A stretch of DNA of 64,000 bases from a virus (Duplodnaviria > Caudoviricetes). Made by a program: the position numbers and the translations under genes. This document shows, piece by piece, positions 1-19,553 of this stretch. The stretch spans positions 1-64,000 of IMG/VR virus record IMGVR_UViG_3300033067_002020; one strand, 5' to 3'. Within the stretch, counting starts at the first letter, position 1. Every line of letters starts with the position of its first letter. The notes under the pieces were generated by a model that was given only the letters and a program-made list of their open reading frames with translations, made no database searches and was not told the DNA's origin.

Positions 1-9
1 GCGAAGGTA

Positions 10-15
10 TACAGT
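10..15 (+). promoter_or_regulatory. -10 box TACAGT of the early promoter family; upstream element lies outside the window
   Basis: GGTA-TACAGT-CTATCTATCAACTGGACACGGAA is nearly identical to 1942-1974. Confidence 0.75.
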
Positions 16-94
16 CTATCTATCAACTGGACACGGAAAGTGCTTCACTTTCCTGGAACCAGCTCCCTCCAAACACTCTCACGGAGATACCATC

Positions 95-418
95 ATGAAC
101 AAGATTTTCACTCTCGGCATGGTTTTCGGTGCGGTTGCTTGTCTTGTCGGCGCAATTTTCACCGGGTCTGCTCCCACGCCCGCTTATGCAAATTCCTCAG
201 TGACACAGGAACCGTTGCCCATGTTGGTGGTAGATTCCAGTGTCACCGTTGGAGAGATCACTCAAGTCGTCCCTGAGCTGGCTCCAGTGATGGTCACCGG
301 TGATGTGATTCACAAGCAAAAAGGTGTCAAGGTTGTGATTGGTGAAAGTGTCATGAAGAAGTGCTATGATTACGGTATGTACAGTGGTGGGACGGATTCT
401 GTGCGTATCTGTGAGTGA
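95..418 (+). CDS. Secreted/membrane-anchored protein, family A copy 1 (C-terminal CYDYGMY...ICE)
   Basis: Hydrophobic N-terminus, PAYA signal-peptidase-like site; paralogous to 1985-2278 and 4481-4789. Confidence 0.9.
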   Translation: MNKIFTLGMVFGAVACLVGAIFTGSAPTPAYANSSVTQEPLPMLVVDSSVTVGEITQVVPELAPVMVTGDVIHKQKGVKVVIGESVMKKCYDYGMYSGGTDSVRICE

Positions 419-447
419 GGCGTGGCACGGTATTTTCCATGAAGAAA

Positions 448-478
448 CTGTGTTAGAGTATATGATGTAAGGTATACT
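448..478 (+). promoter_or_regulatory. Early promoter CTGTGT-N19-TATACT
   Basis: Matches the repeated motif with an exact 19-nt spacer. Confidence 0.7.
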
Positions 479-501
479 CTAACACATGGAATCAAGGAGA
501 G

Positions 502-687
502 ATGACAATGATTGAGATTTACCAGACGTGCAGTCGTCTCGGAACGATTCACTACTACGTCGCCAGTTCACTCGCAGAGTCTCGTGCTCTTGCCACCAAG
601 CTCGCAGGCAAACGATACCGATACATCCTGACGATCTTTCCAACGCATCGAAAATATCACATTGCTAAAAAGATACTTGGGTTGTGA
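502..687 (+). CDS. Hypothetical protein, 61 aa
   Basis: GGAGA Shine-Dalgarno (SD) and promoter upstream. Confidence 0.7.
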   Translation: MTMIEIYQTCSRLGTIHYYVASSLAESRALATKLAGKRYRYILTIFPTHRKYHIAKKILGL

Positions 688-712
688 ACCTTTTTGAACG
701 GTGAGGTAAACT
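682..712 (+). promoter_or_regulatory. Early promoter TTGTGA-N19-TAAACT (leaderless)
   Basis: ATG 719 lies 6 nt after the -10 box. Confidence 0.8.
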
Positions 713-718
713 CTATCT

Positions 719-934
719 ATGTCAAAAATTGATATCGCTGTCCAACGTTTTTGCGCCCAACATGGCATCGATGCAAAAGATGTACTTAACATCATTCCTG
801 ACTTCAATGTTGATTCTGAAGGAAAAGAACCTTCAGCGTACTTTGATGCAAGTTTCCCACATGCAATCATGCCAGCAGATGAACTTCTGGCAGATTGGAT
901 CAAACTGACAATAAAATTGTTTAAACAGTCATAA
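719..934 (+). CDS. Hypothetical protein, 71 aa, leaderless
   Basis: ORF starts directly after a promoter, no SD. Confidence 0.75.
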   Translation: MSKIDIAVQRFCAQHGIDAKDVLNIIPDFNVDSEGKEPSAYFDASFPHAIMPADELLADWIKLTIKLFKQS

Positions 935-949
935 ACTAGACTTTAAATT

Positions 950-992
950 TTTGCCCTCGAATTGTGATGGTTCGAGGGTAAAGGTATAGAGT
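950..992 (+). promoter_or_regulatory. Early promoter TTGTGA-N19-TAGAGT with upstream element in the loop of a 12-bp inverted repeat
   Basis: TTTGCCCTCGAA (950-961) / TTCGAGGGTAAA (971-982), one G.T pair; loop TTGTGATGG. Confidence 0.8.
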
Positions 993-1025
993 CTATCTAT
1001 TGGTTACTCAATAGGAGACGATATC

Positions 1026-1440
1026 ATGATCTCGATCTCGATTTCTGATCTTGTGAGTGTTTGGGATGGAGATGATTTGAATGTCAAAAATGACATTCAA
1101 CGTATCCTGGAACGTTTGCAATCGAAATATGAGATCGTAGGACTTGGACGAAATCGTGTTGTCTTTCGTGACAAAGATTGGGGTGTTCAAGGTTCCATGT
1201 AACACTAACGGTGTCTTAGACAACGAAAACGAATCGTCTGTTTATCATTCTTATCGGAAAAATCATCTCGTAAAATATGCACGTTGTAAAATGTGCAGTC
1301 CTTACGTCCTTGTCATGGAATACGTCGACATTGACATCTCATTGAATGACATGCCGGATTGGGCCATGAGCATAGATTGTCAACAAGTTGGACGTGATCG
1401 ACAAGGGAATATCGTGGCATACGATTTCGGTACCACGTAA
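1026..1440 (+). pseudogene. Small protein-kinase-like gene split by a +1 frameshift at GGGG 1180-1183
   Basis: AGGAG SD and ATG 1026; frame 1 gives EIVGLGRNRVVFRDKDW. Removing one G continues WVFKVPCN..N..E..LVME..D..QVG...GNIVAYDFG, colinear with the kinase at 16503. Confidence 0.75.
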
Positions 1441-1649
1441 TGATGACTTTTCAACCCGGTGAGATTGTGAAAGCCGGTCACTTTGGTGTGACCTTGTCAA
1501 ACAAAGGACAAGAAAAAATAGAGCTTCAACGCGGCGAGTTGATGACAATCTTGAAAATATCGTGGTATGGTGACCACGTGAAGGTACTTTCGACAAAAGG
1601 TCAAGGTTGGACTCATATCAGAGACTGTGATAGACTCGCCAAAGCGTGA
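1440..1649 (+). CDS. Small SH3/KOW-like beta-barrel family member
   Basis: PGEIV start, VLSTKGQGW motif; TAATG coupling. Confidence 0.75.
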   Translation: MMTFQPGEIVKAGHFGVTLSNKGQEKIELQRGELMTILKISWYGDHVKVLSTKGQGWTHIRDCDRLAKA

Positions 1650-1655
1650 TAGAGT
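1625..1655 (+). promoter_or_regulatory. Early promoter CTGTGA-N19-TAGAGT (leaderless)
   Basis: ATG 1663 lies 7 nt after the -10 box. Confidence 0.8.
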
Positions 1656-1662
1656 CTAATCA

Positions 1663-1890
1663 ATGGCAAAAATCAATCTCACTCACAAACAAGTCGCTGA
1701 ACTCTGCCCTCAAGCGTTCCAGACGTTCTTGGAAACATACGGTGAGGCTCCAGAATTCATCGATCAGTGTGAATTTTTCATCAAATTTGAAATCACAATC
1801 AGTGGTGAACACAAATTCACCCTCTTTCATACGGAAGGTCCCGAGGTATTTGCACAAATTTATGAATGGCACAACGGTGAATGGGAGTGA
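1663..1890 (+). CDS. Hypothetical protein, 75 aa, leaderless
   Basis: Clean ORF directly after a promoter. Confidence 0.8.
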   Translation: MAKINLTHKQVAELCPQAFQTFLETYGEAPEFIDQCEFFIKFEITISGEHKFTLFHTEGPEVFAQIYEWHNGEWE

Positions 1891-1908
1891 AAGTTAGAAT
1901 CTTAAATA

Positions 1909-1951
1909 TTTGCCACTGAATTGTGATGGTTCAGTGGCAAAGGTATAGAGT
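1909..1951 (+). promoter_or_regulatory. Early promoter TTGTGA-N19-TAGAGT with upstream element in the loop of a perfect 12-bp inverted repeat
   Basis: TTTGCCACTGAA (1909-1920) / TTCAGTGGCAAA (1930-1941); loop TTGTGATGG. Confidence 0.85.
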
Positions 1952-1984
1952 CTATCTATCAACTGGACACGGAAGGCAAACATC

Positions 1985-2278
1985 ATGAACAATATTTTCA
2001 ATCTCGGGCTCATCTGTGGTGTAATTCTCTCTTTCGTCATGATTCTGATGTCAAGCACCAGTGTCACCCCAGCGCACGCCACTTCAAACACCTCACGTTA
2101 TCAGATGCTTCCCGTGATTGTCAACGTGGTGCCTTCATCTCCCATTCCAATGGCTTCCACTGTCGTCGCCCAAAAGAGCGCCAAAACTCGCGTGGCGGTC
2201 ACTGACAACGGTCATCACAACTGTTATGACTACGGGATGTATTCCGGAGGAACCGACACAGTTCACATCTGTGAGTGA
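1985..2278 (+). CDS. Secreted/membrane-anchored protein, family A copy 2
   Basis: Hydrophobic N-terminus, PAHA site, C-terminal CYDYGMYSGGTDTVHICE. Confidence 0.9.
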   Translation: MNNIFNLGLICGVILSFVMILMSSTSVTPAHATSNTSRYQMLPVIVNVVPSSPIPMASTVVAQKSAKTRVAVTDNGHHNCYDYGMYSGGTDTVHICE

Positions 2279-2300
2279 TAAACGGTGTATTTGATAACAT
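2269..2300 (+). promoter_or_regulatory. Probable early promoter CTGTGA-N20-TAACAT
   Basis: Motif match with a 20-nt spacer, upstream of the SD-led ORF at 2338. Confidence 0.5.
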
Positions 2301-2337
2301 TCTAATGTATGGTTCCAAACAAATAGGAGGATTGTAA

Positions 2338-2547
2338 ATGGATCTCACTCAATTTGAAGTTCACCACAGTGAAAGAGTCCGTACTTCGGTGCCGAGGATG
2401 GACAGTGCAAGATATGTCAAAGCTAAGTTGTTTGGTTTACCAACTGAGATGACTGTTTGGCTGCAAAATGAAACACCCATGGGTTATTGGATTCAAATTG
2501 ATCCTGATGGTCCTTATCGGCTTGTTGAAGAAATCACTGAATTGTGA
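2338..2547 (+). CDS. Hypothetical protein, 69 aa
   Basis: Strong AGGAGG SD. Confidence 0.8.
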   Translation: MDLTQFEVHHSERVRTSVPRMDSARYVKAKLFGLPTEMTVWLQNETPMGYWIQIDPDGPYRLVEEITEL

Positions 2548-2573
2548 TAAATTCTCTGGTCATGGTATAAAAT
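2542..2573 (+). promoter_or_regulatory. Early promoter TTGTGA-N20-TAAAAT (leaderless)
   Basis: ATG 2580 lies 6 nt after; inverted repeat TGGTCATG/CATGACCA flanks the -10 box. Confidence 0.7.
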
Positions 2574-2579
2574 GTTATC

Positions 2580-2741
2580 ATGACCAAAGAAGAACTCTCT
2601 GACAAACTGGATGAGGCTTTCAATCTCGTGGAGGCAGTGAAACTCGAGATTCAAACAGACCCTCGACTCGCTGAGTCGACAAAGCATCTATCTGTCGTCT
2701 GCAATAAACTTACACAAGTCTCAGCGAACCTTCAGAAGTGA
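2580..2741 (+). CDS. Hypothetical helical protein, 53 aa (MTKEELSDKLDEAFNLVEAVK...), not in the ORF track
   Basis: Translated by hand; leaderless start after a promoter; fills the gap between genes. Confidence 0.75.
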   Translation: MTKEELSDKLDEAFNLVEAVKLEIQTDPRLAESTKHLSVVCNKLTQVSANLQK

Positions 2742-2766
2742 ATCTCTCTCACTGAGAGTTTATACT
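2736..2766 (+). promoter_or_regulatory. Early promoter AAGTGA-N19-TATACT (leaderless)
   Basis: ATG 2775 lies 8 nt after; CTATCTC follows the -10 box. Confidence 0.8.
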
Positions 2767-2774
2767 CTATCTCA

Positions 2775-2966
2775 ATGGAAACACTCCAAACTATCGCCCG
2801 TAAGTTTCTCGGTTTCACCACTCTCGAAACTCGCAGGTCAGATTCACTCGACTTCAAAGAAGTTTCTGTCGAATCTGTGAAAAAAGCGCTGGAAGCTGCT
2901 TACCAACTCGGTCGCAGTCATGCTAATTTCACCAACTCTGTGAAAGACTCCAAAGACGAGGAGTGA
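2775..2966 (+). CDS. DUF6900-like small protein
   Basis: IA..FL...TLETRRSDSLDF.EV.V..VKKALEAAY..G resembles the DUF6900 consensus (from recall). Confidence 0.7.
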   Translation: METLQTIARKFLGFTTLETRRSDSLDFKEVSVESVKKALEAAYQLGRSHANFTNSVKDSKDEE

Positions 2967-3347
2967 TGCTGGAATGCACTCAGAATAATCATCGGATTGA
3001 GAGATGGAATCAGTGTCCCTCAACCCGCGGGTTGTCTGATCGCACTTCTGGTGAACGAGAACATGTCTGTGATTGTCATTGTTCTGGACCCACCCAGCCG
3101 GGGCCACTTGTGCCAGTGACACTGTGAGCCGCCATTTTCTCAGTGGATAGATTCAGTGTCCGGCCCATGAAAATAATCGAGGTCACACTCTAGGGCGGCG
3201 ATTCTTGAGCGATGGGTCAGTGCCGCGGCGTCAGGTATCGGTCAGGGGTGAACTGGAACGTCATAACGCCTTCAACGTCAACATCACTTTCACAGTTCAT
3301 GATGAAACGATCAGAACACTCTTGGCACGGATATTTCCACCAACCCA

Positions 3348-3378
3348 GTGTGAACCTGATACGAGGGGAGGTTATACT
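3348..3378 (+). promoter_or_regulatory. Early promoter GTGTGA-N19-TATACT (leaderless)
   Basis: ATG 3386 lies 7 nt after. Confidence 0.8.
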
Positions 3379-3385
3379 CTAACTC

Positions 3386-3664
3386 ATGACCGGAAAGCCC
3401 AACGAAACTGAAACTCGTGCGGACGCTTTGAAACGAATCTTGAAGGAAGAGGTTGATCAATCTGGGTGTGGACACGTTAGTGCTGATGTCTTGTTGGAAG
3501 CTGATATTCATTGTCAATCTTACGATCATGTCTATTATTTCTTGTTCGGCACCCTGTATTGTGGAATCTGGGCATCTAACGAGTTGATCAAACAGAAAGC
3601 ATACTACGACCCGAAGCGCGACGCCTGGTTCAAGGTCAAATGTAATACGCGTTACGCCACCTAA
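3386..3664 (+). CDS. Hypothetical protein, 92 aa, leaderless
   Basis: ORF directly after a promoter. Confidence 0.8.
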   Translation: MTGKPNETETRADALKRILKEEVDQSGCGHVSADVLLEADIHCQSYDHVYYFLFGTLYCGIWASNELIKQKAYYDPKRDAWFKVKCNTRYAT

Positions 3665-3835
3665 TCTGATAATTGTCATCTGAGAGCGGGATCAATGACA
3701 TCCCGCTCTCAGGTAACACTGTCATCTGACGTTCAGATTAGAAACTGACGATAACGCTGGAACACGACATGGCATCCATCCAATAACGGACGATGCCATT
3801 TGATCGTGTTATGATCCCAATCAGTTCTATCCAGA
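3661..3835 (+). ncRNA. Candidate structured non-coding RNA or 3' UTR element
   Basis: Perfect 13-bp stem 3680-3692/3700-3712 inside a 9-bp stem 3661-3669/3733-3741; second hairpin 3761-3767/3804-3810 plus 3769-3776/3792-3799; no ORF. Confidence 0.45.
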
Positions 3836-3932
3836 CACCCATCGACCACACAGAAATATATTCATTTTCAAAAGTTTCAAAATAGTTTGAAACCTAATAG
3901 ATTTTGGATTTTGATTTTAGACACCACATCTC

Positions 3933-3963
3933 TCGTGGCACACAGTGTCTTTAACATTATACT
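3933..3963 (+). promoter_or_regulatory. Early promoter TCGTGG-N19-TATACT with no convincing downstream ORF
   Basis: Exact 19-nt spacer. Confidence 0.6.
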
Positions 3964-3969
3964 TTGGGT

Positions 3970-4150
3970 GTGGCACACTTACACAAAATCTACGTTTATT
4001 GGAACGATCGATTCGTAGACATTCCCGTCCAATCGATCCAACACTGCAAGAAATTTATACCCCACATGACACAAACAGTCATAAAAAAATAATCAAGTGT
4101 TTGTGTATCATCGATGTCGATAGCTTATGACACTTTCACAAAGTGTTGTT
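3970..4150 (+). ncRNA. Candidate promoter-driven small RNA
   Basis: Stems 3989-3994/4014-4019, 4069-4077/4098-4106, 4078-4084/4125-4131 (pseudoknot topology), 4130-4136/4140-4146. Confidence 0.35.
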
Positions 4151-4152
4151 AA

Positions 4153-4190
4153 CTTTTCGATGTGTAAAACAACATCGAAAAGGTTATACT
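4153..4190 (+). promoter_or_regulatory. Early promoter ATGTGT-N19-TATACT within an 11-bp inverted repeat (leaderless)
   Basis: CTTTTCGATGT (4153-4163) / ACATCGAAAAG (4172-4182); ATG 4199 lies 8 nt after the -10 box. Confidence 0.75.
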
Positions 4191-4198
4191 CTATCTCA

Positions 4199-4378
4199 AT
4201 GGCAACCACCCTCGCTCTGCTGGTCACTCTCTTCAACGTCACTTTCACCACGGTGCCCGTTGACACCACCATCGAACTTTCACCGGTCACCATCAGCGCC
4301 GAGGATTGTGAAAGTGACACCCAGGTTGAAGAGTCATACGCTGTGATTATTGAAGAAGCCAAGCTCACCATCTATTAG
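4199..4378 (+). CDS. Small acidic, probably exported protein, 59 aa (start corrected from 4127)
   Basis: Leaderless ATG after promoter; hydrophobic N-terminus MATTLALLVTLF. Confidence 0.7.
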   Translation: MATTLALLVTLFNVTFTTVPVDTTIELSPVTISAEDCESDTQVEESYAVIIEEAKLTIY

Positions 4379-4385
4379 TGTGAAA

Positions 4386-4411
4386 GTTGTGGGGGTGCAA
4401 ACCCCCACAAC
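4386..4411 (+). terminator. GCAA-tetraloop hairpin after the ORF ending at 4378 (terminator or stabiliser)
   Basis: GTTGTGGGGGT-GCAA-ACCCCCACAAC is a perfect 11-bp stem; no U-tract. Confidence 0.5.
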
Positions 4412-4412
4412 A

Positions 4413-4443
4413 CTGTGAATCTTCGACAGCGAAAGTATATAGT
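4413..4443 (+). promoter_or_regulatory. Early promoter CTGTGA-N19-TATAGT
   Basis: Followed by CTATCTATCAACTGG, as in family A copies 1 and 2. Confidence 0.85.
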
Positions 4444-4480
4444 CTATCTATCAACTGGTAACAAGGTGGAGCAAAACATC

Positions 4481-4789
4481 ATGAACAAGATTTTCACCCT
4501 CGGCATGGTTTTTGGCGCGGTCGCTTGCTTGGTCGGTGCAATTTTCACTGCAAGCGTTGAAAAACACAGCTACGCAGCACGCACCACCAATGATGCAGCA
4601 CTGCCCATGTTGGTGACCAATCCCGAGCCCACTGTCACCGTTGGAGAAATCACTGCGGTTGTGAAAGTTGCTGCACCACGCCCGGTCGCAAAATCTGTGA
4701 AGGTCACCGTCGCACAACCCTCACACCCCCACTGCTATGATTATGGGATGTACACAAACAGCAGTGACACGGTTCATATTTGCGAGTGA
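4481..4789 (+). CDS. Secreted/membrane-anchored protein, family A copy 3 (start corrected from 4415)
   Basis: First 23 aa identical to copy 1; GGAG SD; C-terminal CYDYGMYTNSSDTVHICE. Confidence 0.9.
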   Translation: MNKIFTLGMVFGAVACLVGAIFTASVEKHSYAARTTNDAALPMLVTNPEPTVTVGEITAVVKVAAPRPVAKSVKVTVAQPSHPHCYDYGMYTNSSDTVHICE

Positions 4790-4860
4790 GTGAAAGTGTG
4801 GCGATACGCCCCGGTTCATAGCCGGGGTGAAAGACCCTGGTAAAAGGCCGGCGCAAAACA

Positions 4861-4923
4861 CCCCGTTTCAACCCCCTTGTGGGCCCCCTAATAAAGGGCC
4901 TTAAACAACCCCATATTAACCCC
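4861..4923 (-). repeat. Five C4-5 tracts (G-tracts on the - strand)
   Basis: C-runs at 4861, 4872, 4884, 4909 and 4920. Confidence 0.6.
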
Positions 4924-5055
4924 ATCAAAAGGGGTGGAGTGGCTGGCAGCTTTTGTGGGGCCCTTGAGAACCGTCTCGTGGGCACTAAGGCTATGTGCGC
5001 ACGCGAAAAATTTCTGGCTTGAAATAGTCACTTCTATAAGTCAAACACAGGCCAG

Positions 5056-5216
5056 ACGGTCAGGATTCAGTCCTGACCTGGGAATTTATCCTTGATCACC
5101 TCATTTCTGAATTTATTATGTGCGCATAAGGAAATGAAACATTTCCGTTGATCGTGTCATTGACACGACCGTCGAAAAATTTTCAGGTCAAACGGTCAGG
5201 ATATAATCCTGACCTG
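5056..5216. repeat. Two copies of the palindrome GGTCAGGAT-N3-(A/G)TCCTGACC
   Basis: 5058-5078 and 5194-5214, 136 nt apart, in a non-coding region. Confidence 0.75.
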
Positions 5217-5282
5217 AACTGACTTTTGTCTTGTCCTGATAAAATGCAAACGTCAGACAACCAACCGCCCATTACAAGATAG

Positions 5283-5564
5283 TCAATATAACGCTGAATT
5301 TACCACAAAGGAAATGCAATGAATGCATTTCCGCTGGCACTTGTAAGTGACATAAAGGTGATCGCTTAATCCTAATCGTGTCCGACCGCTGAAATCATAT
5401 TCCTCGATTCCTTTTGATGTTAACATCGTGACTTTTGTTCCGTTATGTCTAAGAACGATCATCCTATGATAGTTGTCCTGACGGTTAGGATAAATTCCTA
5501 ACCTCGGCTCCGAGCCATCGCATTCGCCATAGTCCGACCAATGAACCAACCCTAAAGGCATCAT
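5283..5564 (-). CDS. SH3/KOW-like family member in inverted orientation
   Basis: MIVLRHNGTKVTMLTSKGIE matches the family motif. Confidence 0.6.
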   Translation of the reverse strand: MMPLGLVHWSDYGECDGSEPRLGIYPNRQDNYHRMIVLRHNGTKVTMLTSKGIEEYDFSGRTRLGLSDHLYVTYKCQRKCIHCISFVVNSALY

Positions 5565-5639
5565 CTGTGATCATTGAATCTGTTCATTCATTGCAATTCC
5601 GTTGACATGATTTTACGTTATTACATTGCAATGTTTAAA

Positions 5640-5670
5640 TTGTGATCAATGCATCAACTTATGATAACAT
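5640..5670 (+). promoter_or_regulatory. Promoter TTGTGA-N19-TAACAT
   Basis: ATG 5680 lies 9 nt after; no SD. Confidence 0.75.
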
Positions 5671-5679
5671 TAACTGCAT

Positions 5680-6813
5680 ATGACATCACAAATTGAGATG
5701 GTTTGGGTGTGTCCGAGTTGCAAGTCCACCGTCCTCGGACGACACAAAAGTTGCACTGGTTGTGGTCGACGAAAGACACGGCATGAAAGTTTCATCATGC
5801 CATCGGAATTGCAACAACTGACAGATCTGTCGCTTCTTGAGAAGGCGGCGTTGCCACCTGATTTGCAGTGCCAATTTTGTGGCGCGATGCGATTTGCGGC
5901 CACCAGACGGTCAGACAGTCGGGATACATCCCGACCTGGACTAAATCCTGACCTGAATTGCGAGAATTGTGGTGGTCAAGGAAGTGAAACACTTCCATGG
6001 GATGCCCAACCTGACAATGACATTGAAATGACAAAAGCGTTTCGACCCAAGTTTCACAACTGGAAACGTTGGGGGCTCGTGGCTGGTGGCGTTCTTGGAT
6101 TGGCCGTCGTATCATACTTGGTGTTGAGACCACACGTCGAAGGCGCCAAGGTTGATGCGTCACATTGGGTTTACACCGTGAGCGTGGAACGTTTTCATAG
6201 CGTTCATGATGAGGGGTTCAACGCTCCCTTTGGCGCTGAAAACGTCACGATGTCCGGTGCTCGGGTGCATCACTATGTCTCCGTTCCAAACGGGTTTCAC
6301 TCGGAGTTTGTGACCGACTCTCGGTGTGGTCAGGTTTGCACGCCAAGACCCCAAGTGTGCCAAACGGTGCCCCGCAGTTGCACCTCAAATCGCAACGGTT
6401 TTGCGACATGCACAGGTGGAGGAACGACGTGTTCTGGTGGTGGGATGTCATGCGTCACTCGAAGTTGTTCGGTGTCCGTCCAGGATTATCGTAACGATCC
6501 TGTCTTCATGCCATGGTTTTCTTGGGACGTGTGGCGATGGGATCATCAACGTGACGTCGTCACCGAGGGAAATTCCGTGGAGACATGGTGGCCGAGCGAC
6601 GAAAAGATCGCGTTGCGGTTGACGACGTCAGGTCGTGAGGACGAACGAATATCGGATCGCAAGGAAAAGTATGACGTCACGTTCACCACCGATTCAGGAA
6701 AGGTTGTCACCTATCACCCGGCTTCACGACAAGGTTTTATCGGTTTTCGGATTGGTGACCGGCATCGATTGAAAATCGGTCTGTTGGGTGTCGATGTTGT
6801 GAACGGGAAATGA
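5680..6813 (+). CDS. Zn-ribbon membrane protein with a Cys-rich C-terminal extracytoplasmic region
   Basis: W.CPSC...C.GCG, CQFCG and CENCGG motifs; one TM helix (WGLVAGGVLGLAVVSYLVL); later Cys-rich stretch. Confidence 0.8.
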   Translation: MTSQIEMVWVCPSCKSTVLGRHKSCTGCGRRKTRHESFIMPSELQQLTDLSLLEKAALPPDLQCQFCGAMRFAATRRSDSRDTSRPGLNPDLNCENCGGQGSETLPWDAQPDNDIEMTKAFRPKFHNWKRWGLVAGGVLGLAVVSYLVLRPHVEGAKVDASHWVYTVSVERFHSVHDEGFNAPFGAENVTMSGARVHHYVSVPNGFHSEFVTDSRCGQVCTPRPQVCQTVPRSCTSNRNGFATCTGGGTTCSGGGMSCVTRSCSVSVQDYRNDPVFMPWFSWDVWRWDHQRDVVTEGNSVETWWPSDEKIALRLTTSGREDERISDRKEKYDVTFTTDSGKVVTYHPASRQGFIGFRIGDRHRLKIGLLGVDVVNGK

Positions 6814-6823
6814 AACCTTTCCG

Positions 6824-7105
6824 TTGATGTCAACTCTAAACAGAGATTGTTGTTGCAACTATGAGGACTGGCACCGTGGCGACCTGATTCGTTGTAAGCA
6901 TAGTGCCATGGTCTATAGAGGCGTTCATCAAGATAATCCACGCTGGGAAGCCAAGGGTGCCCTTGGGTTTGTCCTCGCTCATGGCCAGCGTTGTGATGAA
7001 TGTCTCAACGATGAATCTTATCTATGCAAATGGCAAACACAAGTCCTGGTGAGGCGTGGCATCGTCTACGTTGATGACGAGGATTGGGTGAAGGTCGATG
7101 ATTAG
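6824..7105 (+). CDS. SH3/KOW-like family member
   Basis: RGDLIRC ... VLVRRGIVYV. Confidence 0.75.
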   Translation: MMSTLNRDCCCNYEDWHRGDLIRCKHSAMVYRGVHQDNPRWEAKGALGFVLAHGQRCDECLNDESYLCKWQTQVLVRRGIVYVDDEDWVKVDD

Positions 7106-7322
7106 GGGTGATCTGGTAAAGATACGGTGGGTTGAAGGTGTGTCTGCATGGACAGAAATTGTTGATCTCGAACGACTGCCACGCGGGGCACCAAGACTCA
7201 CATTAAAAAAATCAGGTGAAATTGGTGTGCTTCTTGAGCGTGGCGACGGCGTTTGCGTCATCCTAAGCGCTCACGGTCAGGTGACTATTCTTAAACATTA
7301 TGTTACAAGGTTTATCACATGA
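7098..7322 (+). CDS. SH3/KOW-like family member
   Basis: RGDLVKI ... ILSAHGQVTI. Confidence 0.8.
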   Translation: MIRGDLVKIRWVEGVSAWTEIVDLERLPRGAPRLTLKKSGEIGVLLERGDGVCVILSAHGQVTILKHYVTRFIT

Positions 7323-7585
7323 TCGGTGAGCTTAGAAAAATGTTGTCGCATGATAGGATTGGTCCGGATGGCAAGGCTCCCAAAGTTTGCCTGTATGCAT
7401 CAGAGAAGGAATACCTATACCGCCTGTATTATGCCGTGTTAGAAGAGGGTGACGTGTGCATCGTTCTTCATCGTGACAACAGTTTACTTCAAGTGTTGAC
7501 ATCAGCCGGCACTGCGTTTATCGAGGTGCTTGACACCAAGACGATTTACGGTGATTATGGTAAATTCTACACTCATCATAGGTGA
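7319..7585 (+). CDS. SH3/KOW-like family member
   Basis: MIGEL ... VLTSAGTAFI; ATGA overlap. Confidence 0.8.
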   Translation: MIGELRKMLSHDRIGPDGKAPKVCLYASEKEYLYRLYYAVLEEGDVCIVLHRDNSLLQVLTSAGTAFIEVLDTKTIYGDYGKFYTHHR

Positions 7586-7745
7586 CATTGCAAAGGTGGA
7601 ACGTAACGACTGGGTCGTGATCATCCTTAAACAAGCGACATACCCGTTGCCATCAGATGAATCAAGATCAATGAAGATGTCTTACGTTCTAAGCGCCAAT
7701 GGCGTCTGGTGGATTGCGACATCTTCCTTATGTTGTGTAAATTGA
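7557..7745 (+). CDS. SH3/KOW-like family member (start 7557)
   Basis: IGDIAKV ... VLSANGVWWI; close paralogue of 8237-8446. Confidence 0.75.
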   Translation: MVNSTLIIGDIAKVERNDWVVIILKQATYPLPSDESRSMKMSYVLSANGVWWIATSSLCCVN

Positions 7746-7764
7746 ATGTCAGAAATGTTATGAT
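7733..7764 (+). promoter_or_regulatory. Promoter TTGTGT-N20-TATGAT (leaderless)
   Basis: ATG 7771 lies 6 nt after. Confidence 0.55.
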
Positions 7765-7770
7765 TGACAC

Positions 7771-7995
7771 ATGATCGGTGAATTGCGATCTTTGCAGGAA
7801 CGCCCGAAAAACGATCAGGTTGGGCTGTCAATGACAGCGGAACGCGCTTGGGCTGGTCTTATTGATTTTTCTGTAAAAAATCATTCTATATGTATCATCC
7901 TTGGTGTGGAAGCCGTCGGTGGTTTTCACATGATTTTTATGTTGACACATCGTGGGATAGGATGGGTCGATAAATCAGAAATTAGGGATTTATGA
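7771..7995 (+). CDS. SH3/KOW-like family member
   Basis: MIGEL ... MLTHRGIGWV. Confidence 0.8.
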   Translation: MIGELRSLQERPKNDQVGLSMTAERAWAGLIDFSVKNHSICIILGVEAVGGFHMIFMLTHRGIGWVDKSEIRDL

Positions 7996-8240
7996 CGTTA
8001 AATCGTGGTGAATTACAATATATACGCCATAATCCTGGCACAAAACGTTCTCGTCACGCTGAACAGATTGGTTTGGCATCGTCCGCCGCACAGGTTTGGT
8101 TGACTCGCACTGATTTTTTCGTAGATCCTTCTCCATGTGTCATTATTGATGTGGCCTTGGTCGGAGGATCTAATGTGATCTTTGTGTTAACCCAACGTGG
8201 GCCAGGATGGATTTACGAATCAAAGGTTGGGGATTTATGA
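7992..8240 (+). CDS. SH3/KOW-like family member
   Basis: NRGEL ... VLTQRGPGWI; ATGA overlap. Confidence 0.8.
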   Translation: MTLNRGELQYIRHNPGTKRSRHAEQIGLASSAAQVWLTRTDFFVDPSPCVIIDVALVGGSNVIFVLTQRGPGWIYESKVGDL

Positions 8241-18657: not shown

Positions 18658-18939
18658 ATGTCGTCTAACACAAAAAACGTCGTAGCTATCACATTAATTG
18701 GTGTTGGTAAAGTTTGTGGATTGTGTGGAATCATGTTGGGTTATACCAATCATAGAAATGTTGCCGCGTTACTTTTGTTGATTTATGGTTTGTTGATATT
18801 AACGTCAGTTTTGCTGTGCATTTCGTCATTGATCAATAACTTAAAAATTGAAAAATCTGATAAAGATGTGATTCGACGCCTTCATGAAGAAGGCGTGTTG
18901 AAACACTATTTATTAGAGGTATGTCAAAACGCAAACTGA
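18658..18939 (+). CDS. Two-TM membrane protein
   Basis: Two hydrophobic segments; TACAAT 6 nt before the ATG. Confidence 0.75.
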   Translation: MSSNTKNVVAITLIGVGKVCGLCGIMLGYTNHRNVAALLLLIYGLLILTSVLLCISSLINNLKIEKSDKDVIRRLHEEGVLKHYLLEVCQNAN

Positions 18940-19553
18940 TAACATTATTGTTAAGTGTCCTTGTGGGATGCGAATCACCTTCTTACGCTAATTCGTCAGA
19001 TGCTTTCATATCGTTACCAGATGTGAATGATAGTGTGATAGCTGACGTGTTAGACTCATCTAACGATACATCATTCGCTAAACAAACAAAAATTTTGTTA
19101 ATAGGTGATTCACAAGCTGGTCGGTGTTCAACAAGAGTTGATCGTGTTAAAAAATCAAACGAAACGGTAGTTGTTGATTACAAGGTCAGCACAACAATCC
19201 AATATTGGAATGACAAGAGATTTGTTACTTCAATTGATCGCTTTTCGCCTGACAAAGTTGTCATATTTCTTGGCACAAACAATTATCTTGATAAAGTTTT
19301 ACCAAACATTGAATCAATTTTGACAACTGTCAAAAATAAATCGCTTGATTGCGTGTGGCTTGGACCGGTTGCCGTTCGTGGTGATAAAAACATTACAATC
19401 AATAAATTGTTGAAAAGAGCAGTTAGCGAAACTTGTGTTTATGTCGATTCAATTGATGCAAACATTCCATTAGAAGATGGAATACATCCTAGTTCATCAG
19501 GAATAGACATATGGTTGAACTTAGCATGGGACAATTTCAGAAAGCGCAATTAA
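18921..19553 (+). CDS. SGNH/GDSL-family esterase, lipoprotein-like
   Basis: LLIGDSQ, FLGTN, DGIHP; lipobox-like LVGC. Confidence 0.85.
   Translation: MSKRKLITLLLSVLVGCESPSYANSSDAFISLPDVNDSVIADVLDSSNDTSFAKQTKILLIGDSQAGRCSTRVDRVKKSNETVVVDYKVSTTIQYWNDKRFVTSIDRFSPDKVVIFLGTNNYLDKVLPNIESILTTVKNKSLDCVWLGPVAVRGDKNITINKLLKRAVSETCVYVDSIDANIPLEDGIHPSSSGIDIWLNLAWDNFRKRN

What the first reader, a model, noticed from the sequence alone, without database searches (positions are those of the whole stretch)
95..4789. Three-copy expression cassette for an exported protein ending in a conserved two-Cys peptide
Seen: 95-418, 1985-2278 and 4481-4789 each follow the same -10 box plus leader CTATCTATCAACTGG. Each encodes a signal/TM segment, an AxA-like site, an LP(M/V)(L/I)V motif, a variable V/T/P-rich linker and C-terminal CYDYGMY(SGG/TNS)(T/S)D(S/T)V(R/H)ICE. 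The first 23 codons of copies 1 and 3 differ at 8 codons, all synonymously, which indicates purifying selection. Inference: an early exported effector whose terminal disulfide beta-hairpin binds a conserved envelope target (superinfection exclusion, receptor or outer-membrane-assembly interference), with linker variants tuning reach.
Basis: partly seen in the sequence, partly recalled or inferred. Interest (0 to 1): 0.7.

Follow-up and report, generated by a model that had tools for sequence, protein, structure and literature searches.

The report
Small exported two-cysteine phage proteins
An uncultured giant phage carries three diverged copies of a small, previously unclassified exported protein that always ends in the same two-cysteine peptide. 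The repeated "cassette" in front of each copy is an ordinary shuffling early-promoter module already known from T4-type phages, and the proteins' target is still unknown.

Summary
Three paralogous genes (95-418, 1985-2278, 4481-4789, + strand) each follow the exact 16-mer TCTATCTATCAACTGG. Each encodes an N-terminal hydrophobic export segment, an Ala-x-Ala type site, a paralog-specific middle part and an invariant C-terminus, CY(D)YGMYxxxxDxVxICE-stop.

The genes are real. Ortholog dN/dS is 0.10-0.25. Copies 1 and 3 differ in their first 23 codons by 8 synonymous and 0 nonsynonymous changes.

The family is an orphan, with no Pfam, PHROG, NCBIfam, PDB, GenBank-phage, IMG/VR or GTDB match. Among 1.84 billion representative proteins only five clusters match. 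Those with DNA in hand lie beside the same phage genes, one on a 297-kb contig. All 32 homologues keep both cysteines.

AlphaFold (low confidence) gives a membrane helix, a disordered middle and a C-terminal beta-hairpin with a cysteine at each end.

The "cassette" is not specific to this family. In relatives the same stem-loop/promoter/leader module drives unrelated genes, is absent before copy 1 in one variant, and marks the gene-replacement breakpoints. That is how PeSL cassettes of T4-type phages behave.

Function is inferred only. The proteins are most likely early periplasmic or membrane-tethered binders, analogous but not homologous to T4 Spackle and RI. The host and the target are unknown.

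Other notes of this scan flagged the promoter element separately on this same genome.

The parts
1..30 (+). Truncated early-promoter module of copy A: -10-like TATACA (8-13) and the start-region 16-mer TCTATCTATCAACTGG (15-30). The upstream stem-loop and -35 are lost at the contig start.
   Evidence: The complete module is seen before the orthologue in L006:9878-9941.
31..94 (+). 5' leader of copy A, with hairpin GGAAAGTGcttCACTTTCC (35-53), Shine-Dalgarno GGAGA (83-87) and 'catc' before the ATG.
   Evidence: Similar leader hairpins with different loop bases occur in L006 and L007.
95..418 (+). Copy A, 107 aa. Hydrophobic segment at residues 4-26 (GxxxG at G8 and G12), AYA|N site after residue 32, middle part 33-89, C-terminal CYDYGMYSGGTDSVRICE (90-107).
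450..485 (.). Perfect 13-bp palindrome GTGTTAGAGTATA-N10-TATACTCTAACAC, 3' of copy A. Its right arm holds the -10 of the next gene's promoter. Its left arm reads as a mirror-image promoter pointing back into copy A.
   Evidence: The left arm stays linked to copy A in L004, L005 and L006, even where the right arm is lost in L006.
1888..1984 (+). Complete promoter module of copy B. It comprises GTGAAAGTT after the upstream stop, an AT-rich tract and a stem GCCACTGAA (1912-1920) / TTCAGTGGC (1930-1938). The 9-nt loop of that stem holds the -35-like TTGTGA (1921-1926). A 17-nt spacer, -10 TATAGA (1944-1949), the 16-mer (1951-1966) and SD GGAAGG (1971-1976) follow.
   Evidence: The stems covary between modules (GCCCTCGAA, GCCACTGAA, GCTTCCGAA, CGTTCCAGAA) while the loop is conserved.
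1985..2278 (+). Copy B, 97 aa. Divergent hydrophobic segment, AHA|T site, shorter middle part lacking VGEIT, C-terminal CYDYGMYSGGTDTVHICE.
4387..4480 (+). Promoter module of copy C. It comprises a stem-loop TTGTGGGGGT-gcaa-ACCCCCACAA (4387-4410), -35-like CTGTGA (4413-4418), a 17-nt spacer and -10 TATATA (4436-4441). The 16-mer (4443-4458) and SD GGTGGAG (4465-4471) follow.
   Evidence: Conserved in L007:300-406.
4481..4789 (+). Copy C, 102 aa. Its first 23 residues are identical to copy A's. SYA|A site, own middle part, C-terminal CYDYGMYTNSSDTVHICE.

Best explanation
What is shown. The window is the first 64 kb of a 75-kb fragment of an uncultured giant tailed phage, whose relatives reach 297-300 kb. 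Its first ~5 kb is an ORFan-rich early region punctuated by repeated regulatory modules. Each module has an AT-rich tract, a covarying stem-loop, a sigma70-like promoter (TTGTGA-N17-TATAGA) and a conserved start region. These modules behave like the PeSL cassettes of T4-type phages, and three of them drive three old paralogs of one orphan protein family.

What is inferred. Each protein is inserted into or passed through the inner membrane by its N-terminal hydrophobic segment, with the N-terminus in and the C-terminus out. It is probably cleaved by signal peptidase I after the invariant Ala32 (my estimate about 70%). Otherwise it stays anchored. The exported part is 65-75 residues.

Its last 17 residues (Cys-x15-Cys), followed only by the terminal Glu, form a beta-hairpin that is closed by a disulfide in the oxidising periplasm. 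This invariant head is taken to be the binding element for one conserved partner. The constrained but paralog-specific middle parts give each copy its own specificity or reach.

The most likely role is an early modification of the infected cell's envelope. That could be blocking a host or incoming-phage envelope or periplasmic component, or tuning lysis timing. T4 Spackle and RI are analogues by class, not homologues.

My odds: real, expressed protein family 0.95. Exported 0.85. Disulfide hairpin 0.6. Envelope-acting binder of the Spackle/RI functional class about 0.4. Superinfection exclusion specifically about 0.2.
For: - Reality and constraint: ortholog dN/dS is 0.10-0.25 overall. The last 18 codons of A versus B show 10 synonymous and 2 nonsynonymous codon differences. 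The first 23 codons of A versus C show 8 synonymous and 0 nonsynonymous.
- Export: there is a 23-27-residue hydrophobic span (mean Kyte-Doolittle 1.9-2.5 over 19 residues) and one Lys on the N side. The -1 residue (Ala32) is invariant in all 32 sequences, and the site reads AxA or SxA in nearly all members, clearly not in P0037. There is no Pro at +1.
- Cysteines: the exported part has exactly two Cys at fixed spacing, the second one penultimate, in every member. This holds for the distant P0036 and P0037 as well.
- Structure: AlphaFold on two paralogs gives helix 3-22, a disordered middle and a hairpin at 90-94/102-106 (A) or 80-84/92-96 (B), with the Cys residues at its ends.
- Age of the paralogs: A, B and C each have their own orthologues. 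A more distant relative seems to keep an A-like and a B-like copy on one 34.5-kb contig.
- PeSL-like modules: they are repeated, intergenic and covarying in the stem, drive unrelated genes, and sit at the breakpoints between relatives. The published definition is in PMC2839356 and PMC4122927.
- Analogues: Spackle is an early T4 protein that is periplasmic, 75 aa when mature, and has one disulfide (PMC7677548). RI is a periplasmic T4 antiholin with a cleavable signal peptide (PMC8385771).
Against: - No signal-peptide predictor was available. The hydrophobic span (23-27 aa) and the 32-aa presequence are long for a Gram-negative signal peptide, and P0037 has Lys at -3.
- The exact amino-acid conservation of the hydrophobic segment, with its GxxxG motif, is unusual for a segment that is merely cleaved off. 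It suggests a retained membrane helix.
- The hairpin rests on low-confidence models (pLDDT 60-72) built from one shallow alignment, and no disulfide has been shown.
- Early timing is inferred from promoter type and gene neighbourhood only. No RNA data could be obtained.
- The host and its envelope type are unknown.
- Nothing links the family to any particular target.
- The T4-type late promoter TATAAATA is not enriched in the window, so 'T4-type' applies only loosely.
Confidence: 0.4

Rival explanations
1. The proteins are uncleaved single-pass inner-membrane proteins. The conserved N-terminal helix is the working part, pairing through its GxxxG motif with itself or with a membrane protein such as a holin or a host transporter or sensor. 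The periplasmic hairpin serves as a sensor or lock. This would be an antiholin-like or membrane-modulator role.
For: The helix sequence is identical in A and C across 8 synonymous changes. G8 and G12 are nearly invariant, and P0036 keeps G-x3-G. The hydrophobic span of 23-27 aa is long enough to cross the membrane. The middle part of about 57 aa, if extended, could span a periplasm.
Against: Ala at -1 is invariant, position -3 is Ala or Ser in nearly all members, and Pro sits at -4 or -6. All three are typical of a signal peptidase I site. T4 RI was long read as an anchor and turned out to be cleaved (PMC8385771). Early sigma70-type promoters are not typical of lysis genes.
Confidence: 0.2
2. 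The conserved hairpin is an envelope-biogenesis or receptor inhibitor. It docks by beta-strand addition onto a conserved beta-rich envelope protein (Lpt bridge, BamA, TonB-dependent receptor plug), as the insect peptide thanatin does on LptA. This would shut down a host envelope function early in infection. It is a specific sub-case of the first reader's idea.
For: A single-disulfide beta-hairpin of similar size is predicted at the C-terminus. The head is invariant while the rest varies. Thanatin shows that such a hairpin can block LptA (PMC11395501, PMC7913509).
Against: The hairpin is neutral to acidic (D, D, E versus one R or H), unlike cationic thanatin. There is no sequence similarity, no host to test, and no homologue outside this phage clade.
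Confidence: 0.12
3. The proteins are secreted pro-peptides. After Sec export the C-terminal cyclic 17-18-mer is cut off and acts as a diffusible signal between infected cells or as a bacteriocin-like peptide, in the manner of Phr or AimP pro-peptides.
For: The architecture matches: a signal sequence, a variable pro-region and a conserved extreme C-terminus. There is a weak, non-significant hit of P0037's N-terminus to the Phr N-terminal model (E 0.15).
Against: No processing site is conserved before the first Cys (KK, HHN, HPH, SKG, HKD). No receptor-like (TPR/HTH) gene is adjacent, and all neighbours are ORFans. The peptide is invariant across paralogs and relatives, whereas signalling peptides diversify. 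The middle part is under purifying selection. No stand-alone short forms exist.
Confidence: 0.07
4. The ORFs are chance or decaying frames carried along by repeated promoter DNA, with no protein function.
For: None, beyond the absence of any database annotation.
Against: Purifying selection is strong and synonymous sites are saturated between paralogs. There are 32 intact homologues with an invariant C-terminus. Shine-Dalgarno sites lie at the proper distance.
Confidence: 0.01

Closest known systems
PeSL (promoter-early stem-loop) cassettes of T4-type phages (Arbiol et al. 2010, PMC2839356; Comeau et al. 2014, PMC4122927)
   Same: Both are repeated ~100-bp intergenic modules that combine an AT-rich tract, a stable stem-loop and a sigma70-like N17 promoter, ending at the SD and ATG of the next gene. 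Both are concentrated in an ORFan-rich plastic region and sit at the insertion, deletion and replacement breakpoints between close relatives.
   Different: The consensus is different: (T/C)TGTGA-N17-TATAGA plus a conserved start region GTCTATCTATCAACTGG. [quoted passage not shown] The phage is a ~300-kb uncultured myovirus, not a classified T4-type phage. Promoter and terminator activity are untested.
T4 Spackle (gp61.3), periplasmic superinfection-exclusion protein (PMC7677548)
   Same: Both are early phage genes of about 100 codons (Spackle's numbering runs to Glu97) with an N-terminal export signal. Spackle's mature periplasmic protein is 75 aa and has a single disulfide, and its C-terminal residues are part of the binding surface.
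   Different: There is no sequence relationship. Spackle is an alpha-helical bundle, whereas this family is predicted to be disordered plus a beta-hairpin. Spackle is single-copy. Its target, the gp5 tail lysozyme, is known, whereas none is known here.
T4 RI antiholin (PMC8385771)
   Same: RI is a small periplasmic phage protein whose N-terminal hydrophobic segment was debated as anchor versus signal peptide and is in fact cleaved. It acts by binding the periplasmic domain of another protein.
   Different: There is no sequence relationship. No holin partner was identified here. The function is unknown.
Thanatin-type single-disulfide beta-hairpin peptides that bind LptA (PMC11395501, PMC7913509)
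   Same: Both are beta-hairpins of roughly 17-21 residues closed by one disulfide, a shape suited to beta-strand addition.
   Different: Thanatin is an insect-derived, cationic, free peptide. This hairpin is acidic to neutral, forms the C-terminus of a 65-75-aa exported phage protein, and has no similarity in sequence.

Membership tests
PeSL regulatory cassettes (T4-type phages) | sigma70-like early promoter with a 17-nt spacer | tested here: met
   TTGTGA-N17-TATAGA (copy B) and CTGTGA-N17-TATATA (copy C) were read directly. The same layout occurs in over 10 modules of the window and of L004-L007. The generic scanner missed them because both hexamers match the consensus only 4/6.
PeSL regulatory cassettes (T4-type phages) | adjacent stable stem-loop and an AT-rich tract upstream | tested here: met
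   There are 9-10-bp stems with compensatory changes between copies, preceded by AAAT(T/A)TTT(G/C).
PeSL regulatory cassettes (T4-type phages) | located in ORFan-rich plastic regions and at indel or replacement breakpoints between close relatives | tested here: met
   Window 1969-4413 is replaced by a single 221-aa gene in L006, with the modules at both junctions. The module is absent before copy A in L004. The neighbours have no family hits apart from one DUF.
PeSL regulatory cassettes (T4-type phages) | measured promoter and terminator activity; mini-circle formation | not testable with these tools
   This needs reporter assays and inverse PCR.
Sec/signal peptidase I substrates | positive n-region, hydrophobic h-region, small residues at -3 and -1, no Pro at +1 | tested here: inconclusive
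   K3 is present in most members. The h-region is 23-27 aa, which is long. Ala at -1 is invariant and Ala or Ser stands at -3 in nearly all sequences, clearly not in P0037. Position +1 is N, A, T or F. No SignalP-type predictor was available.
Bacterial lipoproteins | lipobox L-(A/S)-(G/A)-C with a conserved Cys | tested here: not met
   Cys16 of A and C lies mid-helix. It is Ser in B and Ala in P0036 and P0037, and P0008 has F at -1.
T4 Spackle / RI / Imm families | sequence homology to the family profile | tested here: not met
   No Pfam, PHROG or NCBIfam hit below E = 0.005, and none to these families. The PDB profile search gave its best hit at E about 1, to an unrelated MBT repeat.
Phr/AimP-type secreted signalling pro-peptides | adjacent cognate receptor gene and peptide diversification between lineages | tested here: not met
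   The neighbours are ORFans without TPR or HTH hits. The C-terminal peptide is invariant in 13 of 18 positions across all lineages.
Thanatin-like beta-hairpin antimicrobial peptides | cationic single-disulfide hairpin that binds LptA | tested here: not met
   A hairpin with terminal Cys residues is predicted at low confidence. Its net charge is about -1 to -2, so it is not cationic. Binding is not testable.
SH3-like small paralog array of the same phage (window 5283-20584) | profile similarity to the array's family | tested here: not met
   hhalign of A3 against A4 gave a probability of 0.1%.

The most novel reading that the evidence does not exclude
The invariant C-terminal Cys-x15-Cys hairpin is a phage-evolved docking peptide. 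It would bind by beta-strand addition to one conserved envelope machine of the host, such as the LPS-transport bridge, the BAM complex, or the plug or TonB box of an outer-membrane receptor. The three paralogs would present it at different reach or with different co-specificity. This would be a new natural scaffold for blocking Gram-negative envelope functions and a new mechanism of early host takeover or superinfection exclusion.
Probability: 0.12. Interest if true: 0.75.

Novelty: new variant of a known kind. Interest (0 to 1): 0.35.

Why it matters
Small exported early proteins are how T-even phages re-tool the envelope of an infected cell (Imm, Spackle, RI), and very few such proteins are understood. 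This family adds a structurally different example, predicted as a disordered stalk carrying a disulfide-locked hairpin. It is kept in two to three diverged copies by a clade of giant phages. If its partner is a conserved envelope machine, the 18-residue head would be a compact natural ligand worth characterising.

The finding also extends PeSL-type mobile promoter cassettes to an uncultured ~300-kb phage lineage. Here there is an unusual twist, because the -35 element sits in the loop of a covarying stem.

As it stands the function is unknown and the host unidentified, so the immediate value is modest.

Tried and rejected
**Database searches that found nothing**
- Pfam, PHROGs and NCBIfam gave no significant family.
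- GenBank phages were negative by blastn and tblastn.
- IMG/VR was negative by peptide patterns for A1, P0036 and P0037, and by a degenerate DNA pattern for the C-terminal motif.
- GTDB genomes were negative by peptide patterns and by the DNA pattern.
- Searches for longer (fused) and shorter (stand-alone) forms among 5.8 billion proteins were negative.
- The ESM Atlas gave no usable hit, and the earlier-findings look-up by sequence found nothing.

**Structure and complex**
- The PDB profile search gave its best hit, an MBT repeat of L3MBTL3, at E about 1. It suggested a Tudor/SH3-like barrel. I rejected this because the E-value is not significant, hhalign against the phage's own SH3-like array gave 0.1%, and AlphaFold shows no barrel.
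- Foldseek of the model against the PDB gave no match.
- The homodimer co-fold (complex prediction) returned 'no answer'. It is not used as evidence either way.

**Ideas rejected**
- Lipoprotein reading of 'AVAC': the Cys is not conserved.
- T4-type late promoter TATAAATA as a marker: only 1 hit, which is no enrichment.
- Rfam on the whole window: no family.

**Tools unavailable**

Full report
**1. What is there**

The window is bases 1-64000 of a 75,310-bp IMG/VR virus record rated 20% complete. They align along their whole length. A is 59% identical to C and 41% to B, with identity concentrated at the N-terminus and in the last 18 residues.

The 16-mer TCTATCTATCAACTGG occurs exactly three times in the 64 kb, once before each copy. 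Allowing three mismatches adds no further hit.

**2. The genes are real and constrained**

In the last 18 codons, A and B differ at 10 codons synonymously and at only 2 nonsynonymously.

A Nei-Gojobori analysis of orthologous pairs from related metagenome contigs gives dN/dS of 0.10-0.25 for the whole gene and 0.06-0.37 for the middle "linker". The linker is therefore constrained within each ortholog group and is not a free spacer. Between paralogs the synonymous sites are saturated, so the duplications are old.

**3. Distribution**

No Pfam, PHROG or NCBIfam family matches. Nothing matches in GenBank phages, in IMG/VR or in one genome per GTDB species.

A profile search of 1.84 billion representative proteins finds five clusters only. 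Three correspond to A, B and C. Two are distant 101-aa proteins, P0036 and P0037, ending CYNYGMYAAGSDTVRICE and CYTYGMYSAGTDSVRICE. The word-index search of 5.8 billion proteins finds the same clade and no fused or stand-alone forms.

Each paralog has its own orthologues. P0008 (A-like, 61%) and P0038 (in the B-like P0036 cluster) both report a longest contig of 34,509 bp. A more distant phage therefore probably also keeps at least two paralogs.

Members sit on contigs of 297,205 and 299,776 bp, so the phage is a giant one. The window carries gp6- and gp25-like baseplate wedge genes, an RnlA-type RNA ligase and an ATP-dependent DNA ligase. That makes it a myovirus with T4-like traits. TATAAATA late promoters are not enriched, and the host is unknown.

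**4. Anatomy of the protein** (32-sequence alignment A3)

- *Export segment.* The N-terminus starts M-N-K and continues with a 23-27-residue strongly hydrophobic span, with nearly invariant G8 and G12 (GxxxG). Proline sits at -4 or -6. Position -3 is Ala or Ser in nearly all members (clearly not in P0037), and Ala32 at -1 is invariant. Proline never occupies +1.
- *Orientation and cleavage.* The charge bias puts the N-terminus inside and the rest outside. The site looks like a signal peptidase I site. The long hydrophobic span and the strict amino-acid conservation of the helix keep the uncleaved-anchor reading alive. I put cleavage at about 70%, and no predictor was available.
- *Middle part.* It runs 47-64 residues, is rich in V, T and P, and is specific to each paralog. 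The motif LP(M/V)(L/I)V is shared, and VGEIT occurs in A and C only.
- *C-terminus.* The last 18 residues are C-Y-(D/N/T)-Y-G-M-Y-x-x-(G/S)-x-D-x-V-(R/H)-I-C-E, followed by the stop codon in every member. The exported part always has exactly two cysteines, 16 positions apart.
- *Lipoprotein reading.* It is rejected, because Cys16 is not conserved.

**5. Structure**

AlphaFold2 was run with A3 (copy A first) and with A7 (copy B first). Both runs give the same picture: helix 3-22, a disordered middle, and a C-terminal beta-hairpin. The hairpin spans 90-94/102-106 in A and 80-84/92-96 in B, and the two cysteines face each other at its open end. Confidence is low: mean pLDDT is 55-57 overall and 60-72 in the hairpin.

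Foldseek finds nothing. A weak PDB profile hit to an MBT repeat (E about 1) suggested a Tudor/SH3-like barrel. I rejected that, because hhalign against the phage's own SH3-like paralog array gives 0.1%.

**6. The "cassette" is a generic, mobile promoter module**

Reading the upstream regions gives the following consensus, in order:

- GTGAAAGTT just after the preceding stop codon;
- an AT-rich tract, AAAT(T/A)TTT;
- a 9-10-bp stem whose sequence covaries between copies (GCCCTCGAA, GCCACTGAA, GCTTCCGAA, CGTTCCAGAA, and others);
- a conserved 9-nt loop carrying the -35-like (T/A)(T/A)GTGA;
- a 17-nt spacer and then TATAGA;
- GTCTATCTATCAACTGG;
- often a leader hairpin (GGAAAGTG-nnn-CACTTTCC);
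- a GGAG-type Shine-Dalgarno site and 'catcATG'.

In L006, which is 20 kb of the 297-kb relative, the same module including the CAACTGG leader precedes at least three unrelated genes (module positions 8133, 9165 and 10458), as well as copies A and C. In L004, where copy A is 98% identical, the module before copy A is absent and the gene simply follows the upstream ORF.

BLAST breakpoints between the window and L006 fall at the modules. Window 1969-4413, holding copy B and about eight ORFans, is replaced by a single 221-aa gene.

This is how PeSLs behave. PeSLs are small cassettes of a strong sigma70-like promoter plus a stem-loop, enriched in the hyperplastic regions of T4-type phages, and they mediate modular shuffling of ORFans (PMC2839356, PMC4122927). 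The repeated promoter and leader is therefore a known kind of element and not a dedicated expression cassette for this family. The placement of the -35 in the stem's loop is a local peculiarity, which two other notes of this scan also flagged on this genome.

**7. Function**

Nothing homologous has a known function, the neighbours are ORFans, and the host is unknown. Function is therefore inference.

The features point to an early protein acting in the periplasm or at the inner membrane through its conserved head. Those features are sigma70-type promoters in an ORFan-rich early-type region, Sec-type export, a single probable disulfide, an invariant C-terminal head, and paralog-specific constrained bodies.

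The closest functional analogues are T4 Spackle and T4 RI. Spackle is an early, periplasmic protein, 75 aa when mature, with one disulfide, and it inhibits the tail lysozyme of superinfecting phage (PMC7677548). RI is a periplasmic antiholin whose N-terminal segment is a cleavable signal peptide (PMC8385771). Neither is a homologue, and both are helical.

A thanatin-like docking of the hairpin onto a beta-rich envelope protein is an attractive sub-hypothesis. The hairpin is acidic, however, not cationic.

A pro-peptide or signal-peptide reading is unlikely. There is no conserved processing site and no receptor gene. The peptide is invariant, and the middle part is constrained.

**8. What could not be done**

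- The homodimer co-fold gave no answer and is not used as evidence.

**9. Verdict**

This is a new, narrowly distributed orphan family of a familiar functional class, riding on PeSL-like mobile promoter modules. Interest is moderate to low until a host or partner is known.

Noticed in passing
window 4790-5010 (+); L006:11604-11828; L007:716-945: A ~220-nt GC-rich non-coding block starts right after copy C's stop codon. It is nearly invariant in three relatives and more conserved than the flanking genes. RNAalifold gives -75 kcal/mol but only one compensatory pair with three sequences, and Rfam has no hit. It is a candidate structured RNA or cis element.
   Followed up: partly
window 5010-5680: The rest of the 900-bp gene-free stretch holds three copies of a 33-nt element containing the hairpin GGTCAGGAT-n5-ATCCTGACC (5048, 5184, 5473). 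It also holds paired GGAAATG-n-CATTTCC hairpins. It looks like an origin or a regulatory region.
   Followed up: partly
window 719, 1663, 2775, 3386, 4200 (gene starts): A second promoter class (GGTTATACTCTATCTCAATGG and variants) puts the ATG only 6-9 nt after the -10 hexamer. These small early genes would then be translated from leaderless or nearly leaderless mRNAs.
   Followed up: no
window 450-485: A perfect 13-bp palindrome lies after copy A, and its two arms both read as -10 plus start regions in opposite directions. The left arm, pointing antisense into copy A, stays linked to copy A even in L006, where the right arm is lost. It may be an antisense promoter or an RNA hairpin.
   Followed up: no
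window 1-8000 versus the rest: The early region is compositionally distinct, at 43-49% G+C against about 35% in the structural and glycan genes.
   Followed up: no
window 5680-6813 (+): This 377-aa protein has N-terminal zinc-ribbon-like CxxC pairs, one membrane helix and a Cys- and Gly-rich outside domain. It is the first gene after the non-coding block and is conserved in L006 and L007. It is another exported Cys-rich early protein and a conceivable partner of the two-Cys family.
   Followed up: no
window 18921-19553 (+): This predicted lipoprotein (LVGC lipobox) has a weak GDSL-lipase hit. Right after the lipid-modified Cys it carries SPSYANSS, which shares the 5-mer YANSS with copy A's AYA|NSS site. 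This may be chance or a shared module.
   Followed up: no
copies A and B, P0004, P0036 (residues 33-37); copy C hairpin loop: Asn-x-Ser/Thr sequons sit immediately after the predicted cleavage site (NSS, NVT, NTS, NTT) and inside the group C hairpin loop (NSS, NST). The phage also carries a ~30-kb glycan-synthesis island. The link is purely speculative.
   Followed up: no
window 2775-2966 (+): This is the only neighbour with a family hit: DUF6900, E = 1.6e-20.
   Followed up: no
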